The notes under the pieces: model-generated | What the model was told of the DNA's origin: nothing | What the model saw: the letters and a program-made list of their open reading frames with translations, nothing else | The model's database searches: none | Shown here: positions 47,880 to 64,000 of the stretch, piece by piece | How positions within the stretch are numbered: position 1 is the first letter of the stretch | How the letters are laid out: each line of letters begins with the position of its first letter | Assembly (NCBI GenBank): GCA_036012755.1 | Contig: DASCPX010000027.1 | Location: 288,001 to 352,000 of the forward strand | DNA from: Myxococcota bacterium | Lineage (GTDB): Bacteria > Myxococcota_A > UBA796 > CAJQPC01 | DNA length: 64,000 nt | Direction of reading: 5' to 3' | Translations under genes and position numbers: made by a program

Positions 47880-47952
47880 GCCGAGATAGCTCAGTTGGTA
47901 GAGCAGCTGATTCGTAATCAGCAGGTCGTCGGTTCAAATCCGATTCTCGGCT
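47880..47952 (+). tRNA. tRNA-Thr(CGT)
   Basis: GCCGAGA/TCTCGGC acceptor stem, AGTTGGTAGAGC D arm, GCTGA-TT-CGT-AA-TCAGC anticodon arm, GTTCAAATC T loop; CCA not encoded. Confidence 0.96.
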
Positions 47953-48049
47953 CCTCAGACCCTGGCCTCGGCCGGGGTCTTCGCACTCAGCAGGTCGTCG
48001 GTCGTGCGCGACCCCGGCGGGTGCCGGCCTGTCCAAATCCGGTTTCCGG
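47911..48049 (+). repeat. Repeat A copy 1 (139 bp; tRNA 3' half + terminator + downstream)
   Basis: Matches 50279-50417 with one mismatch. Confidence 0.95.
47957..47982 (+). terminator. Hairpin after tRNA-Thr (duplicated at 50325-50350)
   Basis: AGACCCTGGCC-TC-GGCCGGGGTCT stem; weak U tract. Confidence 0.6.
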
Positions 48050-57072: not shown

Positions 57073-57450
57073 TCAGTCGATGGCGTGGCGCTTCATGAGC
57101 TCCCAGAGGTGCTTGCGGACGTTGCCCGGCCAGGGATGCTCCTCGAGCATCGCGAGGGCCTCTGGGCTGAGGTCCCTGGGGGTCTCGGGGGAGCGCTCCC
57201 TCAGGGCCGCGAGGAAGCACCGCGCCAGGGGCGCGATGTCCTCCGTGCGCTCCCGGAGCGGGGGCACCAGGACCTCGAAGGCTGCGAGCCGGTAGAGCAG
57301 GTCCGCCCGGAATCGGCCGGCTGCGACCTCCTTCCGCAGGTCGCGGTTCGAGGCAGCGATGAAGCGGACATCTACCTCGATGGTCGCGTCAGCCCCGACC
57401 GGGAGCACCTCGCGACTCTCGAGGACACGCAGGAGTCGGGCCTGGGGGGC
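57073..57450 (-). pseudogene. Fragment of sigma-54-dependent (NtrC-type) activator
   Basis: [40 protein letters not shown] joined directly to an HTH tail; Walker A and GAFTGA absent. Confidence 0.85.
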
Positions 57451-57467
57451 CTCTTCGACAGCGCCTG

Positions 57468-57667
57468 GTGAGCCAGCGAGATGCGGGCCAGCGTGCCCTC
57501 CATGCCATCCGCCCTCGAGCCCAGGCTGAGCTCCCCGCCGAGGGCGTCCACGATCGAGCGGGACACCGCGAGACCCAGCCCAGTCCCCTGCCCTGTGTCC
57601 AGGGTGGTGAAGAAGGGCTCGAAGACCCGGTCACGGATCCCCGGGGGAATGCCGGGGCCGTCGGCCA
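57468..57667 (-). pseudogene. Fragment of histidine kinase HATPase domain
   Basis: [26 protein letters not shown]; no H box, N box or start. Confidence 0.85.
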
Positions 57668-57671
57668 GGGA

Positions 57672-58238
57672 GAGCTCACCTGCGAGACCGACCCCTGCGG
57701 CGCTGACGCGGTCTGCAACGACCTCGACGCTGGCGACTACGAGTGCACCTGCGCGACGGGCTTCTCCGGAGACGGCTTCGACTGCTGCGCTGACGACGAC
57801 GGCGACGAGACCTGCAACGACCTCGACAACTGCGTCTCCGATGCCAACCCCTCCCAGGACGACTTCAACTCCGACGGGACCGGCGACGCCTGCGACTCGA
57901 TCGTGATCATGCTGTCCGACCTCACCACCACCGCGCAGTTCTACGAGTACGAGGCGGTGTCCGCCACGGTCCACTACTTCGCGCTCCTCGACGAAGGCGG
58001 CGAGCCACACGTCGCAGTCGACGCTTGCGATGTCTGCTACGGAGCCAAGAAAGGCTACCGGCAGGACGGCGACGAGATGGTCTGCAACAACTGCGGCCTC
58101 ACATTCGACATCGACGGCATCGGCTCCGAGAACCGGACCGGTGGCTGCAACCCCGGCTACATCCCGATCGAGATCACCGCCGAGTCCGTCATCATCGAGC
58201 CAGAGGCCCTCGAGGCCGCGAGCTGGTACTTCGAGTAG
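57672..58238 (+). CDS. DUF2318/FtrD-like Fe-S protein with EGF-like and TSP3-like repeats, 5' truncated
   Basis: [13 protein letters not shown] (EGF-like), DNC....[14 protein letters not shown] (TSP3-like), [25 protein letters not shown]; no credible start. Confidence 0.7.
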
Positions 58239-58241
58239 GTC

Positions 58242-58838
<597 letters not shown>

Positions 58839-58841
58839 GCC

Positions 58842-60932
58842 TCAGTAGCTCTCGCTCGCGCTGCCCCCGTCGCGGTCTCCGAAGTCCCACCCGTAGCGCT
58901 CCGCCACTGCCGCCCCGTAGTCCCTGCGGACCACCGTCGCGGTGACGGTCAGCCCCGCGGTAGAGGGGAAGCGGTGCTCGCTCGTGGCGCTGGAGAAGGC
59001 GGCGATGCGGTTGTCGCTGGCGACGTCGAGGGCCCTGTAGTGGGCCACGCCCCGGCGGCCCTCGCTGTCGACGAGGACCTTTGCGTAGAGCCAACCCGGC
59101 GCGCCGGCGTGGTGCCCCTCGGCGCAGAGGAAGACGACATCGCCGCGACGTGTCTCCGGGGGCTGCGAGGCGAGGATTGCCGAGTCCCCGGTGATGGAGC
59201 TCAGCTCGACCTCGCCGAGGAACTCGTAGACAGGCAGGCCCTTTTCTGCGGCCGTGGCCTCGGCGAACGAGGTCGTGCCAGGCCCTGAGTAGTCGGTCCA
59301 CTCCCCGGTCGGGCGGACGAAGCGGGCGATCAGCGCCCCCTCCAGCTCCTGGCCCGAGAGCTCCAGGTCCAGCTCCGAGACAGACGCGTCAGCGCCGATG
59401 GTCCCCATCGCCAGGTAGCCGCCGACGTCCGGAACGACCTGGCCACCTGTGGCTTCTACCGGCTGTCCGTCAGCGTCCAGGGCGCTCACGAGGACGATGA
59501 TCTGCCTCAGCGGCTCCCCGGTCGGCACTGCGTGTGCGGCCCGATTCGTCAGCTCGACCGTCGCGCGGAGCTCGCCATCCTGCTCTTCGAGGGAGAGCAG
59601 GAGGTAGGGATCGCCGAGGTCATCGGCGCGGGGGAAGTGATGGTGCCGGACCTCTCCCGCCTCGCGCAGCCAGCCCTGGGTGGTCGAGGGGATCTGGCCC
59701 CGGTCGACGATGTCGTAGGTCGAGCTCGGGAGCTCCAGCGTCGGCATGTGGCAGCCCTGACAGGAGAAGCCGGCCTCTGTGGAGCCCGCCGCTTCGAACT
59801 CGGAGAAGGTCTCCAACACGGGCAGCCCATCGGGCCAGCGTTCGGAGTCCAGCTCCTCGCCGGGTCCCAGCGCCGGCTGGTAGTACTCGTGGCAGGCGGA
59901 GCAGAAGCGCGCCTCGCGGAACAGGGGGTTGTAGCTCCCGTTCATGATCGGCACGACCACGTCGGGGTAGGGGCCGAAGATGATTGGGTCGAACTCCTGG
60001 CCGCCGATGCGCGACTCCTCGCTGGGGCGCTCGAGCTGGATCGCCCCGTCGAGTCCAGGGGCGGGACCGGCGACGACGGAGCGGATCTTGTGGCAGAAGT
60101 CGCAGGTGACCCCCTCGTGAGCCACTCCGGTCGAGGCGGCGAAGTCGATCGACCCGGGCGTGCCGCCGTCGGTGGCGGGGGTGTGGCAGTCGCCGCAGCT
60201 GCCGAAAGCGGTGAGGGTGTCCCGTCGATCCGGGTGGTCGCAGGCCGGTCCACAGCCCTCGTTCAGCCAAGGAAGCACGCCCTCGCCGAGGTAGCAGTAC
60301 TCCGCGACGGTCCCCTCCTCTCCTGGCAGCTGGCCCTCTGCCAGGCTCCCGCCAAGGGCGTCGCAGTCGTCTGTCTCGGAGGCCCGCCCGGTGTAGATGT
60401 CCCACACCTGTGGGTCCGAGGCGGCCTTGGCGTGGGTGGAGTCCGCCCAGTCCCCGGCGATGTCCCAGTGGCAGTGTCCGCAGTAGCTCGTGTCGGGGCT
60501 CTTGATGTCCCCACCCTTCTGGAAGGGGTAGTCGACGTTGTCGACTCCCAGCAACGGCCGCATCGTGATGGTCAGCGGGCCTGTGGGATCCTCCTCGGGC
60601 ACGGCCACGGACCCGCTGATCCAGCCCTCCTTGCCGGCCAGCAGGTGACGCTCGGTGATGCCGTCGTCGTCTACCTCCAGGGTAGCCAGACCCTCTGCAT
60701 CGGTGGTCACCCAGCGGTCCTCGGGCCAGCCCCCGACCATGGCCACGGCTCCCTCCACGACAGCGCCGTCGGGGTCCACGACCACCACCGTCGCGGCGCC
60801 GGTCCAGCGCTGCGCCTCGATCTCGCTGTCGTCGACGGAGCTCTCGGCCCGGCTCTCGGTCGAGCTCTCGTCAGGCGCGCTGTCAGCTCCCCGGCCGTTG
60901 CAGGCGAGGCAGAACAAAAGCGGCGTGATCAA
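58842..60932 (-). CDS. Multiheme c-type cytochrome lipoprotein (5 CxxCH)
   Basis: CGHCH, CGDCH, CDFCH, CSACH, CQGCH; CLAC lipobox; TTG start overlapping upstream TGA. Confidence 0.85.
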   Translation of the reverse strand: MITPLLFCLACNGRGADSAPDESSTESRAESSVDDSEIEAQRWTGAATVVVVDPDGAVVEGAVAMVGGWPEDRWVTTDAEGLATLEVDDDGITERHLLAGKEGWISGSVAVPEEDPTGPLTITMRPLLGVDNVDYPFQKGGDIKSPDTSYCGHCHWDIAGDWADSTHAKAASDPQVWDIYTGRASETDDCDALGGSLAEGQLPGEEGTVAEYCYLGEGVLPWLNEGCGPACDHPDRRDTLTAFGSCGDCHTPATDGGTPGSIDFAASTGVAHEGVTCDFCHKIRSVVAGPAPGLDGAIQLERPSEESRIGGQEFDPIIFGPYPDVVVPIMNGSYNPLFREARFCSACHEYYQPALGPGEELDSERWPDGLPVLETFSEFEAAGSTEAGFSCQGCHMPTLELPSSTYDIVDRGQIPSTTQGWLREAGEVRHHHFPRADDLGDPYLLLSLEEQDGELRATVELTNRAAHAVPTGEPLRQIIVLVSALDADGQPVEATGGQVVPDVGGYLAMGTIGADASVSELDLELSGQELEGALIARFVRPTGEWTDYSGPGTTSFAEATAAEKGLPVYEFLGEVELSSITGDSAILASQPPETRRGDVVFLCAEGHHAGAPGWLYAKVLVDSEGRRGVAHYRALDVASDNRIAAFSSATSEHRFPSTAGLTVTATVVRRDYGAAVAERYGWDFGDRDGGSASESY

Positions 60933-61648
60933 GAGCCCGCGTGTTCGGCGATCACGTCCCTGAGCTCCTCGAGCCCGTGGCCGGTCGTGCACTCCAGCAT
61001 CTCCATCTCCGGCGACAGGGCGCACTTGCCGGGCAGGCTCCTGCCATCGTAGGGCGTGACGTCCAGCAGCAGGCCCTCGGTGTCCGCCAGGACCGGGAGG
61101 TCCGGCGAGCCGAGCCGCTCGTGGTACTCGGCGGCCATCTCGGGTGGGGGCGGACCGGGATCCATGCCCTCGAAGAGGCCGACGATGTAGCCCATCTCGA
61201 TGCCGGTCTCGTCGGTGAAGTCGACGCTGTCTTCATAGAGGCTGACCGCCTCCGTCATGCAGACGCCTCACCAGGCGGCGGTCATGAAGAGGATGTGGTA
61301 GCTCCTGGCGAAGTCCCAGAGGTCCACCTCGTCGCCGCACTGGTCGACGAAGGTGACGTTGTCGACCACGTCACCGACCTCGGCTCCGGTGGAGCTCAGG
61401 TCACCGGGATCGTCGTGGCGCCAGCCGCAGGCGTAGCACTGCTCGTCGAGGTCCAGCGGGCTGGAGCCGCAGTCGAGCTCGTCGCCGTCGTCGAAGCCGT
61501 CGCCGTCGCTGTCCGCCAGGGTCGGATCCGTGCCGAACTCGTCCTCTTCCATGCAGTCTTCGAGCCCGTCGCCGTCAGCGTCACCGCCGCAGGCTCGGGC
61601 GACGTCAGTGCCGGTACAAGCGAGGCCAAGCAGGAGCAGGGAGTTCAT
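60929..61648 (-). CDS. Selenocysteine-containing redoxin (UxxC) lipoprotein with Ca-binding DxDxDG repeats, 239 aa
   Basis: Track ORFs 61268-61648 and 60929-61258 are in frame; TGA 61270-61268 gives TAAW-U-GVC; SECIS-like hairpin follows. Confidence 0.82.
61229..61267 (-). promoter_or_regulatory. Bacterial SECIS-like hairpin
   Basis: GTCT-GCATGAC-GGAGGC[GGTCA]GCCTCT-ATG-A-AGAC; G-led loop starting 21 nt after the UGA. Confidence 0.7.
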
Positions 61649-61719
61649 GGGCAGTTCCTATCGGACGGCCCAGCCTATCCTCCGAGAGGGTGCCTTCGGT
61701 CCGCGGTCTGCAAACAGCC

Positions 61720-62589
61720 TCAGTCGGAGGGGTCCAGAGCGGCCTCGATGCCCCCTGGGGTGTGGCACGCCTGGCACAGGGCGCCGTCCTCCAGAGGCAG
61801 CCTGGACAGCGCCGAGTCCCCCGCGACCGGAGCCGCGTGGAGGCCGATCGACGGCGACCCCTGCTCCAGGCTCGGAGCCAGGACCTGCTCCAACCAGGAC
61901 TCGGGGAAGGGGGACGAGTCGGGGATCTCACGGCTTCGCTGGGTGATCCCGGGGGGATGGGGGTCATGGCAGGTCGAGCAGACCAGCTCGCCCTGGGGAG
62001 TCAGCGGCAGGCCCGCTGCCTTGGCCCGCTCCGCCATCTCCGGCTCCATCGGCCCACGGTGGAGCGCGGATCCCGCGTGGGCCGAGAGCTGGTGGCAGGC
62101 CACGCAGATCTCGTCGCCCTGGACCGTCGCTGGGGCGCGGCCCGTGTCGGCAGGGACCGGGTCGTGGCAGCCCAGGCAGCGGGTCGGGATCGCCGGGTCC
62201 AGCATCGCCTGGTGGGGGTCGAAGCCCACGCTGGTCAGCTCCACGTGGCAGGCGGCGCAGAAGCCGCGCTCGTTGGGATAGGTCCCCCTGAGCAGGCCGG
62301 GGCTGGCCGCGTCGCCGTGACAGGCGGGCTCGTCGTGGCAGCTCAGGCAGGCCAGCTCGCCATTCACCAGCGGAAAGACCCCTGGGACGGTCGCCGTCTC
62401 CGGCTTCATCCCGACGGGGTGGGGATCGGCGGCGTGGCAGCTCAGGCAGGTCTCGTCCGCGGAGCCGTGGGTGAAGGAGACCTCCTCCGGGGCGGTCCCG
62501 ACCGATGCCTCGGAGTGGCAGGCGGCGCAGCCCTCCGCGTCGCCATGGGGGTTGGCAGAGGCGCTCAGCAGCAGCAGGAGCCCGGTCAC
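61720..62589 (-). CDS. Octaheme c-type cytochrome (doubled-CXXCH type)
   Basis: 8 CxxCH motifs, HPVG and CH-DPH patterns; GTG start overlapping upstream TGA. Confidence 0.88.
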   Translation of the reverse strand: MTGLLLLLSASANPHGDAEGCAACHSEASVGTAPEEVSFTHGSADETCLSCHAADPHPVGMKPETATVPGVFPLVNGELACLSCHDEPACHGDAASPGLLRGTYPNERGFCAACHVELTSVGFDPHQAMLDPAIPTRCLGCHDPVPADTGRAPATVQGDEICVACHQLSAHAGSALHRGPMEPEMAERAKAAGLPLTPQGELVCSTCHDPHPPGITQRSREIPDSSPFPESWLEQVLAPSLEQGSPSIGLHAAPVAGDSALSRLPLEDGALCQACHTPGGIEAALDPSD

Positions 62590-62879
62590 TCGCCCTCTCC
62601 CGTGTCGACTCGGAGCGCCTCGACGCCGTTGTCTCCATGACATGGCACGCAGGTGGACGGGTCCTCTGGATCCGCCTCGATCTCTTCGACCTCGACCCCG
62701 CCGATGCAGTCCTGGCTGTGGATGTTCCAGGCCTGGTGACACTGGAAGCACTGCTCCTGGCCCCAGCCCACGCCGTGTTCCTCGGCGGTCAGGGTGAGCG
62801 CCGCCGGAGACCTGGTCAGGTCCCGCGTCCCGGCGCAGGGATCCGGATCGCCGCAGGCGAGCAACAACAGCAGGCTCAC
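62586..62879 (-). CDS. Small diheme cytochrome c lipoprotein
   Basis: MSLLLLLAC; CFQCH, CVPCH. Confidence 0.82.
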   Translation of the reverse strand: MSLLLLLACGDPDPCAGTRDLTRSPAALTLTAEEHGVGWGQEQCFQCHQAWNIHSQDCIGGVEVEEIEADPEDPSTCVPCHGDNGVEALRVDTGEGE

Positions 62880-63460
62880 AGGGCACCTCCATCTGCGTGG
62901 CAGGCGACACAGTCGGGCTGGAGGTGGCAGGTGCTGCAGGCGGCCGGATCAGCACGGGCCGCGATCCCGTGGATGCTGATCCAGCTGCGGTCGTGCACGT
63001 CGAAGGAGATGGACTCCTTGTTCTCGTGGCAGTCGATGCACTCGGAGCTCAAGTGGCAGTCCTTGCACTGCAGGAGCCCCATGCGGCTCTGTCCCCCGTG
63101 GAGCTCCAGCCACCCGGCCCCGTGGCTCGCTGGTGGGGCGATCTGCTCGTGGCAGGTCTCGCAGCGCCCCGGGGCCTTGGTCCGCCGGTCGTCCGCCGGG
63201 TTGTGGCAGTAGTGACAGGCCTGCTCGGGCGGTCGGAGGAAGACCTCGTCCACCGCCTGGGGCGAGGCCGGTGTGGGCGCCGCCGCCCCCACCTGGTGAC
63301 ACGCAGTGCAGGAGAGACCCTCGCGCTTCAGGGCGCGCTCGTGGACCTCGTGGTCGAAGCGATCGAAGATCTGCTCTGAGTGCCCGGACAAGCTCGGGGC
63401 CGCGGCCCAGGCCAAGGGAGGGGCCAGGAGCAGGACCATCGCCGAGCTGCGCCACCTCAT
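62876..63460 (-). CDS. Heptaheme periplasmic cytochrome c (c3/c7-like N-terminal part)
   Basis: Signal peptide (AWA), FDHEVH, 7 CxxCH. Confidence 0.88.
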   Translation of the reverse strand: MRWRSSAMVLLLAPPLAWAAAPSLSGHSEQIFDRFDHEVHERALKREGLSCTACHQVGAAAPTPASPQAVDEVFLRPPEQACHYCHNPADDRRTKAPGRCETCHEQIAPPASHGAGWLELHGGQSRMGLLQCKDCHLSSECIDCHENKESISFDVHDRSWISIHGIAARADPAACSTCHLQPDCVACHADGGAL

Positions 63461-64000
63461 GGCAGGCTCACGACGAGGCCGGCGTTGCCTCGCAGATCGA
63501 AGCGATGGGTGGCGTCAGAGGCCGCCTCGACCCCGGCCTGGACGCGAAGCCGTTCCGTGAGCTCTGAGTGGACCTCGAGGCCCCCGGTCAGGACCGTGTC
63601 CCAGGGCTCGTGCAGCTTGCGATAGGGCACGACCGCCGCCGTGGCGTGCAGGCTCCGCGCGTCCGACAGGGACAGGGTCGCCCGCGCGCTCAGGGCGTGG
63701 AAGACACCGCCGGGCCCAGACCGGAAGGCGTAGGCAGGGGCGACGGTCCAGAGCCGAGCCCGTCCCGGCAGCCAGGCAACGTCGACGAGGTGGCCCCACT
63801 GACGCACCTCGTCCTCGGAGTGGGATGTGAGGGCGTAGCTGGTCCACAGGGTCGAGCGCCGAGCGCCTCGAAGACGCACGCTCCCACCGACCTGGTCGAC
63901 CCCCTCCGGCGCAAAGGCGGCAGTGATGGCCTCGCCGAAGAGGGAGTCCGGGTCGAGCGCCTCTCTGTGCTGGGCGTGGATCGAGGCCCGCACTCCAGGG
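63457..64000 (-). CDS. Probable outer-membrane beta-barrel, C-terminal part (runs off window)
   Basis: Continuous alternating amphipathic strands; ATGA overlap with heptaheme gene. Confidence 0.6.
   Translation of the reverse strand, partial: PGVRASIHAQHREALDPDSLFGEAITAAFAPEGVDQVGGSVRLRGARRSTLWTSYALTSHSEDEVRQWGHLVDVAWLPGRARLWTVAPAYAFRSGPGGVFHALSARATLSLSDARSLHATAAVVPYRKLHEPWDTVLTGGLEVHSELTERLRVQAGVEAASDATHRFDLRGNAGLVVSLP

What the first reader, a model, noticed from the sequence alone, without database searches (positions are those of the whole stretch)
60929..61648. Hidden selenoprotein: UxxC redoxin lipoprotein split by an in-frame UGA, with SECIS
Seen: the 126-aa ORF ends ...HILFMTAAW-TGA and the next three codons are GGC GTC TGC, in frame with the 109-aa ORF below. 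The joined protein reads W-U-G-V-C at the point where TlpA/AhpC-like thioredoxin folds carry W-C-x-x-C, after a typical 'VGDVVDNVTFVDQCGDEVDLWDF' lead-in. A hairpin (GAGGC-GGTCA-GCCTC) with a G-led loop sits 21 nt downstream. Established: this is the layout of bacterial Sec insertion. Inference: a 239-aa lipid-anchored selenoenzyme with DxDGDG Ca-binding repeats, which gene callers would break into two hypothetical proteins.
Basis: partly seen in the sequence, partly recalled or inferred. Interest (0 to 1): 0.88.

Follow-up and report, generated by a model that had tools for sequence, protein, structure and literature searches.

The report
Selenoredoxin paired with five-heme cytochrome
The apparent stop codon in this gene almost certainly encodes selenocysteine in the active site of a membrane-anchored thioredoxin-like enzyme, a known kind of marine selenoprotein, whose uncatalogued subfamily usually sits next to the gene for an unstudied five-heme cytochrome.

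Summary
Confirmed. The minus-strand gene 61648-60929 encodes a 239-residue protein with in-frame TGA at codon 127, in W-U-x-x-C. All 59 full-length database homologues have Cys there. Of 105 distinct DNA loci, 84 have TGA, 21 TGC/TGT and none TAA/TAG; the downstream stem is intact in 81 of 82 close TGA loci and 0 of 17 Cys loci. The genome holds selA, selB, selC and selD. The fold is ResA/TlpA-type thioredoxin behind a probable lipoprotein signal and two DxDxDG repeats. UxxC redoxins of this type have been catalogued since the 2000s; no curated model covers this subfamily. It is distantly related to the selenoenzyme MccSep but lacks its Sec and, by a weak alignment, its Cys heme ligand. Most likely the selenoprotein is an exported disulfide reductase serving that cytochrome. 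Expression, activity and binding are untested.

The parts
60929..61648 (-). Selenoprotein gene, 239 aa (UxxC redoxin lipoprotein)
   Evidence: full-length Cys homologues; AlphaFold2 mean pLDDT 93.5 (39)
61616..61648 (-). Probable very short lipoprotein signal, residues 1-11, with Cys11
   Evidence: Cys at this column in 59 of 59 full-length homologues; first Cys at position 8-23 in 55 of 58 (76). No basic n-region and Gly at -3 in the window protein; no signal predictor was available, so this is an inference
61451..61582 (-). Two DxDxDG repeats (bacterial TSP3-like, probably Ca-binding), residues 23-66
   Evidence: PF18884 25.6 bits, cut-off 25, two stretches; Asp/Gly residues conserved. Ca binding not tested
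60941..61387 (-). Thioredoxin-fold domain of ResA/TlpA type, about residues 88-236, with U127, C130, E133 and P206
   Evidence: Profile hits to pneumococcal Etrx and ResA; Foldseek E 4e-8 to 1e-7 (46); PF00578 and PF08534 below their cut-offs
61268..61270 (-). In-frame UGA read as selenocysteine 127
   Evidence: 84 TGA, 21 TGC/TGT, 0 TAA/TAG of 105 distinct loci; Cys at +3 in 84 of 84 TGA loci
61237..61253 (-). Bacterial SECIS hairpin (+15 to +31 after the UGA; invariant loop G at 61246)
   Evidence: Core stem intact in 81 of 82 close TGA loci versus 0 of 17 Cys loci; pair +15/+31 G-C 42, C-G 33 (70), at least 6 switches on the tree
58842..60932 (-). Partner gene: 696-aa probable lipoprotein, five-heme c cytochrome related to PDB 5ZE8 and MccSep; its TTG start overlaps the redoxin stop
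   Evidence: conserved neighbour; no Cys at the MccSep Sec site in 120 of 120 homologues
61720..63999 (-). Upstream multiheme cytochrome genes (61720-62589, 62586-62879, 62876-63460) and a heme-free gene running off the window; local context, not a conserved part
   Evidence: Pfam/NCBIfam; found beside the redoxin only in L064 (near-identical to the window) and L065 among 105 loci

Best explanation
UGA127 is decoded as selenocysteine by SelB/tRNA-Sec through the hairpin at +15 to +31 (strongly supported by comparison, not shown by experiment; about 0.97 on its own). The product is exported and lipid-anchored at Cys11 (inferred). Its ResA/TlpA-type domain works as a thiol-disulfide reductase: the U127 selenolate attacks a client disulfide, C130 resolves the mixed selenenylsulfide, and DsbD re-reduces the Se-S bond (inferred from the family). 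The most likely dedicated client is the co-encoded five-heme cytochrome: the redoxin keeps its five CxxCH motifs reduced for heme attachment by the Ccm system, or sorts them from its four extra conserved cysteines (inferred from gene order).
For: Sec reading. Fold and active site: ResA and Etrx are the best sequence and structure matches; E133 (58 of 59 homologues) aligns with the ResA Glu three residues after its second Cys, and P206 (57 of 59) with the conserved Pro (that this Pro is cis is recalled). Reductant and maturation system: a three-part DsbD-like gene and ccmE (59) are in the genome. Partner: the start overlaps the redoxin stop; neighbour in 39 of 82 close TGA loci versus 2 of 17 Cys loci, and 13 of 16 versus 1 of 11 where both flanks are long; in whole genomes 20 of 30 versus 2 of 13 (104, with two mislabelled rows corrected by 106); it occurs directly downstream, one gene downstream, upstream and once on the other strand. 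Other neighbours are also c-type cytochromes: SO2930-like diheme and MbnH-like diheme genes, both below their cut-offs. ResA's role in keeping apocytochrome Cys reduced: PMC9145763 passages.
Against: The cytochrome occurs without this redoxin: 17 of 22 family genomes have it against 12 of 22 for the redoxin, and in 9 of 11 extra cytochrome regions no redoxin domain was found, some of them cut by contig ends. 5 of 18 well-flanked TGA genome loci lack the cytochrome. Loci are related and share genomes, so the counts are not independent. The genome has several other redoxin paralogues, and I did not look for a general CcmG. No resB was found, so this is not a System II ResA. No RNA, protein or activity data.
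Confidence: 0.55

Rival explanations
1. Two-part selenoenzyme. The mature cytochrome and the redoxin exchange electrons: the heme chain re-reduces the U127-C130 bond (or is reduced by it), and the selenolate cleaves S-S bonds such as polysulfide or organic disulfides. The Sec/Cys pair that MccSep carries in one chain would here sit on a separate subunit.
For: The partner is related to MccSep and 5ZE8 (50, 72) yet has Glu 102, His 6, Ala 5, Asp 3, Ser 3, Lys 1 of 120 at the U325 site and no Cys at the putative heme-ligand site in the 96 of 120 that matched the pattern. Pairing is much commoner with the Sec form than with the Cys form.
Against: The similarity to MccSep is weak (E 0.004) and the heme region of the model is poor (pLDDT under 50 over most of 245-369), so the ligand site is placed only roughly. 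The redoxin looks like an ordinary ResA-type fold. No fused form was found (115, weak evidence). The cytochrome often lacks the redoxin. One-electron heme to Se-S transfer between separate proteins has no precedent that I found.
Confidence: 0.2
2. General extracytoplasmic antioxidant or repair thioredoxin (like pneumococcal Etrx, or a peroxidase-like Prx-like protein) with many clients; the cytochrome is a co-regulated neighbour.
For: Etrx1/Etrx2 rank with or above ResA. The genome has further candidate UxxC redoxins in other contexts. Most Cys members and a third of TGA members lack the cytochrome nearby.
Against: The gene pair survives several rearrangements, which co-regulation alone explains less well. 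A W-x-x-x-C with resolving Cys and no TxxU/C motif argues against a true peroxiredoxin (sequence; motif classes from PMC13188914 Table 1).
Confidence: 0.22
3. The TGA is a true stop (two genes or a nonsense allele), a sequencing error, or the genome reads all TGA as a residue.
For: The window has an ATG four codons after the TGA with GAGG upstream of it.
Against: Only 6 of 84 TGA loci have that ATG and 26 of 84 have any common start codon within ten codons. TGA or Cys, never TAA/TAG, in 105 loci. Among loci not cut by a contig end, the frame stays open for 103-120 codons after the TGA. TGA ends 2,071 of 3,008 long coding frames, so it is the main stop codon. Other assemblies keep the TGA.
Confidence: 0.02

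Closest known systems
Prx-like 1 (PF00578, UxxC) and Prx-like 3 / 'Redoxin family protein' (PF08534, UxxC) marine selenoproteins; 'Thiol-disulfide isomerase-like' (cd02966, UxxC). PMC2398784 Table 2; PMC13188914 Table 1
   Same: UxxC in a thioredoxin fold with the same weak Pfam hits. The GOS dataset holds similar active-site stretches, and its Figure S1D shows a Prx-like 3 fused to DxDxDG repeats.
   Different: Here the repeats are N-terminal behind a lipoprotein signal, not C-terminal. There are extra conserved Cys (60, 71, 74, 104, 209, 220). Subfamily motifs were not found in the four GOS supplements searched. No cytochrome partner is mentioned in the passages read.
ResA (Bacillus subtilis), TlpA, pneumococcal Etrx1/Etrx2
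   Same: Fold (target-normalised TM about 0.73), W-C/U-x-x-C, Glu at +3 after the second Cys, conserved Pro, membrane anchor.
   Different: About 20% identity; Sec instead of the first Cys; Ca-type repeats; far below the NCBIfam cut-offs for TlpA and ResA; the host has ccmE but no resB hit.
MccSep/ExtKL (NF040886; PMC13510729) and the Thermochromatium tepidum penta-heme cytochrome c552 (PDB 5ZE8), for the partner gene
   Same: Five CxxCH motifs in the same order followed by an Ig-like region with the same H-x-x-P-x-G-x-P loop (50); 5ZE8 is the top fold match, E 2.4e-9 (72).
   Different: No Sec or Cys at the U325 site and none at the roughly aligned Cys-ligand site (61, 117); 29.8 bits against a cut-off of 250 (23); extra N-terminal beta domain, a four-Cys insertion, and a probable lipid anchor.

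Membership tests
Bacterial selenoprotein | In-frame UGA aligned to conserved Cys in homologues | tested here: met
   Cys in 59 of 59 full-length proteins; 84 TGA and 21 Cys codons in 105 loci
Bacterial selenoprotein | Similarity on both sides of the UGA | tested here: met
Bacterial selenoprotein | bSECIS consensus: 3-9 nt loop, 4-16 bp stem, G in the first two loop positions, 16-37 nt spacing, MFE at most -7.5 (PMC13188914) | tested here: met
   Window: loop 5, stem 6, spacing 20, -10.2. Permissive scan of my own: 82 of 82 close TGA loci, but also 5 of 17 close and 3 of 4 distant Cys loci, and 1 of 2 distant TGA loci
Bacterial selenoprotein | selA, selB, selC, selD in the genome | tested here: met
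   All over their cut-offs; tRNA-Sec anticodon TCA; selA in 21 of 22 family genomes, not found in G007, which has TGA copies (56, 29)
Bacterial selenoprotein | Se in the translated protein | not testable with these tools
   Needs 75Se labelling or MS
Prx-like UxxC redoxins (PF00578 / PF08534 type) | UxxC in a thioredoxin fold | tested here: met
Prx-like UxxC redoxins (PF00578 / PF08534 type) | Pfam domain match | tested here: inconclusive
   22.2 bits (cut-off 26) and 17.8 bits (cut-off 26.6); the GOS paper itself lists Prx-like 3 with a weak Pfam match
ResA / TlpA (NF002854, NF047696) | Score over the curated cut-off | tested here: not met
   13.6 bits versus 230 for TlpA; best member E 1.8e-6 (79)
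ResA / TlpA (NF002854, NF047696) | Reduces apocytochrome c or CuA-site disulfides | not testable with these tools
   Only gene context supports it
Bacterial lipoprotein | Hydrophobic signal ending in a lipobox Cys | tested here: inconclusive
   Conserved Cys and mostly L-x-[AGS]-C in homologues; the window signal is short and atypical; no predictor run
MccSep/ExtKL (partner gene) | Five CxxCH motifs | tested here: met
   120 of 120 homologues
MccSep/ExtKL (partner gene) | Sec/Cys at U325 and Cys239 heme ligand | tested here: not met
   Glu at the U325 site in the window protein and 102 of 120, Cys in none; no Cys at the roughly aligned ligand site (61, 117)

The most novel reading that the evidence does not exclude
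The redoxin and the five-heme cytochrome form a surface-anchored two-part selenoenzyme in marine Myxococcota-like bacteria: an MccSep-fold heme wire that has no catalytic Sec/Cys of its own, coupled to a separate UxxC subunit that does the S-S chemistry. This would be direct heme-to-selenothioredoxin electron transfer, bypassing DsbD.
Probability: 0.12. Interest if true: 0.82.

Novelty: new variant of a known kind. Interest (0 to 1): 0.47.

Why it matters
The Sec reading corrects a gene that annotation cuts in most carriers: 31 of 44 matches in 39 of 151 sampled genomes of the order contain the TGA. Most UxxC redoxins in the catalogues have no known client. This subfamily comes with a conserved neighbour, so it offers a testable substrate, and a set of Sec and Cys versions with and without SECIS for asking when Sec is kept in an exported reductase. 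It also flags an unstudied cytochrome family related to the recently characterised polysulfide reductase MccSep, with relatives labelled Sorangium and Minicystis. If the two proteins prove to be one enzyme system, that would be a new way to couple heme chains to selenol chemistry.

Tried and rejected
Hairpin stability against shuffles was uninformative. Rfam found only a tRNA in the window. No promoter or terminator consensus in 58200-64000. The representative-protein search was swamped by DxDxDG-repeat proteins. No RNA holder listed, so expression is open; runs X7 and X11 did not cover the TGA with a long piece. No fused form among proteins of 420-2000 aa (weak evidence). Repeated Sec-to-Cys change: FastTree on 160 rows needed 13 changes, but IQ-TREE quick on 97 DNA-locus rows (7 distant names excluded) needed 4 and strongly supported branches force only 1; the careful search did not finish, so I do not claim repeated loss or a direction. 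The +15/+31 covariation is partly relatedness: a control pair (+15/+40) also correlates (p 2e-8). Toxin-fold hits for the cytochrome model have TM under 0.1 and were dismissed as beta-sandwich noise. The upstream cytochrome cluster was rejected as a conserved part. MccSep membership of the partner was rejected. Literature searches showed no paper on this subfamily or pairing; Haft and Tolstoy 2025 on selenoprotein neighbourhoods was not held and the BSepDB entries could not be searched, and either may already cover it. Look-ups of earlier findings by sequence and by words were empty.

Full report
Observation. The feature is on the minus strand. From ATG 61648 the frame reads 126 codons to a TGA at 61270-61268 and continues for 112 codons to a TGA at 60931-60929, giving 239 residues with W126-U127-G-V-C130. 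A hairpin pairs +15..+20 with +26..+31 after the UGA and closes a 5-base loop. By itself the hairpin is not unusually stable (z -0.34 to -1.83).

Is the TGA selenocysteine? The genome (G000, 95.95% complete, 68% GC) has selA, selB and selD over their curated cut-offs and a tRNA-Sec with anticodon TCA; its SelD has its own in-frame TGA. A protein search found 234 relatives and listed 120. The 59 of 200 aa or more all have W-C-x-x-C at this column, and the other 61 all end at the residue before it. At DNA level, 116 loci (the window's, 17 from genomes, 18 from the family search, and the best 80 of 102 from metagenomes) reduce to 105 distinct ones: 84 TGA, 21 TGC/TGT, none TAA or TAG. In a sample less biased towards the query, 39 of 151 genomes of the order hold 44 matches, 31 with one internal TGA. 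TGA is the main stop in this genome (2,071 of 3,008 long frames), so general recoding is excluded. Contigs from two other runs span the gene without a listed difference at the codon; one is from the study that may be the source, and they are contigs, not reads.

SECIS. Among loci of at least 37% identity, the five core pairs are intact in 81 of 82 TGA loci and 0 of 17 Cys loci. The RNA constrains the protein: residues 135 and 136 are only Gly or Val, and Gly, Ser or Arg, in TGA loci but vary freely in Cys loci. The flanking pair +15/+31 is G-C in 42 and C-G in 33 of 82, with at least 6 switches on the tree; relatedness inflates this, as one of six control pairs also correlates strongly. The element meets the published bacterial consensus (PMC13188914, passages); my permissive version of that test passes 82 of 82 close TGA loci but also 5 of 17 close Cys loci.

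Protein. Residues 1-11 look like a very short lipoprotein signal; Cys11 is conserved in 59 of 59, but the window's signal is atypical and no predictor was run. Residues 23-66 hold two DxDxDG repeats (PF18884 just over its cut-off). The rest is a thioredoxin fold: AlphaFold2 mean pLDDT 93.5, best matches pneumococcal Etrx and Bacillus ResA by profile and by Foldseek. E133 and P206 align with ResA's Glu three residues after the second Cys and with its conserved Pro. Six further Cys (60, 71, 74, 104, 209, 220) are conserved in 58-59 of 59; I infer structural disulfides. No NCBIfam 20.0 family matches the window protein at E 0.001, and other members give only weak hits. Named relatives are mostly labelled Myxococcota or Deltaproteobacteria, and the runs that hold the DNA are marine.

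Partner. The next gene starts at a TTG that overlaps the redoxin's stop and encodes a 696-residue probable lipoprotein with five CxxCH motifs. It neighbours the redoxin in 39 of 82 close TGA loci and 2 of 17 Cys loci; with long flanks, 13 of 16 (the window's own copy included) and 1 of 11. In 43 regions from whole genomes other than G000 it is 20 of 30 against 2 of 13; one search mislabelled two TGA rows as Cys, which one search corrected. These sets overlap and the loci are related. The gene order varies: adjacent, one gene apart, upstream, and once inverted. The link is not obligate: the cytochrome is in 17 of 22 family genomes against 12 of 22 for the redoxin, and 9 of 11 further cytochrome regions show no redoxin domain nearby, while one has a more distant Cys redoxin directly after it. 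The cytochrome's nearest solved relatives are 5ZE8 (E 2e-6) and MccSep (E 0.004); 5ZE8 also tops the fold search of a partly poor model. MccSep reduces polysulfide with U325 beside a Cys239-ligated heme (PMC13510729, parts 1-2 of 8). The partner family has Glu at the U325 site in 102 of 120 and Cys in none, and no Cys at the roughly aligned ligand site. It is therefore not an MccSep. It has four extra invariant Cys (22 of 22).

Mechanism. Shown by comparison: Sec decoding signals, the fold, the gene pairing. Inferred: export and lipid anchor, reductase chemistry with U127 as nucleophile and C130 resolving, re-reduction by the DsbD-like protein of the genome, and the cytochrome as client during Ccm-type heme attachment (ccmE present; no resB hit). 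The analogy is ResA, which keeps apocytochrome Cys reduced (PMC9145763, passages). I give this 0.55. A general periplasmic antioxidant role gets 0.22, an electron-exchanging pair with the mature cytochrome 0.2, and a true stop or error 0.02.

Comparison and novelty. UxxC selenoproteins with PF00578, PF08534 or cd02966 domains are listed in the 2026 catalogue (PMC13188914, parts 1 and 4 of 10 and passages) and were abundant in the GOS survey (PMC2398784, passages). That paper's Figure S1D already shows such a redoxin fused to DxDxDG repeats, at the C-terminus. Motifs specific to this subfamily were absent from its four supplements. Searches listed no paper on the subfamily or the pairing; BSepDB was seen in passages only, and Haft and Tolstoy 2025 was not held, so prior coverage cannot be excluded. 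Earlier notes of this scan describe other selenoproteins in the same genome; they are leads, and I saw matching sites myself.

Verdict. A real, misannotated selenoprotein of a known kind, in an uncatalogued subfamily with a conserved and unstudied multiheme partner. New variant of a known kind; interest 0.47.

Noticed in passing
window 58242-58838 (+): Convergent lipoprotein gene with a thioredoxin-like domain matching NF053656 (TUGYCR-motif family) at 53 bits, cut-off 100; Cys form, no TGA; also near the redoxin in L046, L075 and L087.
   Followed up: partly
window 61720-64000 (-) and L064 1-3200: Cluster of multiheme cytochrome genes plus a 376-aa heme-free gene with no NCBIfam hit (possibly a beta-barrel, my guess). 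With the partner gene it holds 6 of the genome's 32 frames with two or more CxxCH motifs.
   Followed up: partly
G000:C9:99274 (+), locus L013: Second UxxC redoxin lipoprotein paralogue with in-frame TGA and a downstream hairpin.
   Followed up: partly
G000:C137:129117 (-), C70:223778 (-), C70:137246 (+), C135:2965 (-): Further candidate Sec sites from the genome scan: a UxxC redoxin at the end of a long frame, a redoxin resembling the TUGYCR type, an AhpD-like CxxU, and a CxU site like UshA-type selenoproteins (family names are my reading of motifs).
   Followed up: no
L093, L034, L078, L082, L098, L103: A mostly Cys-form group sits with an MbnH-like diheme gene (352.6 bits in L093, cut-off 362.85), and in several loci with genes that look like a multicopper oxidase and a heavy-metal efflux pump.
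   Followed up: partly
L030, L031, L033, L035 and related loci: In one large TGA clade an SO2930-like diheme cytochrome gene lies between the redoxin and the five-heme cytochrome.
   Followed up: partly
window, e.g. 62879, 61648, 60932, 58242: Many predicted lipoproteins begin with very short signals (Met, a few Leu, Ala-Cys) and no basic n-region; homologues from other genomes do too.
   Followed up: no
G011:C351:75649-77592 (L158): The cytochrome match is split over two pieces near its C-terminus: a broken gene or an assembly fault.
   Followed up: no
window 47880-47954 (+): tRNA-Thr(CGT).
   Followed up: no
window 57372-57718: A sigma-54-activator-like fragment and a histidine-kinase-like fragment lie back to back without full-length frames; possibly a rearranged or broken pair (read by eye).
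   Followed up: no
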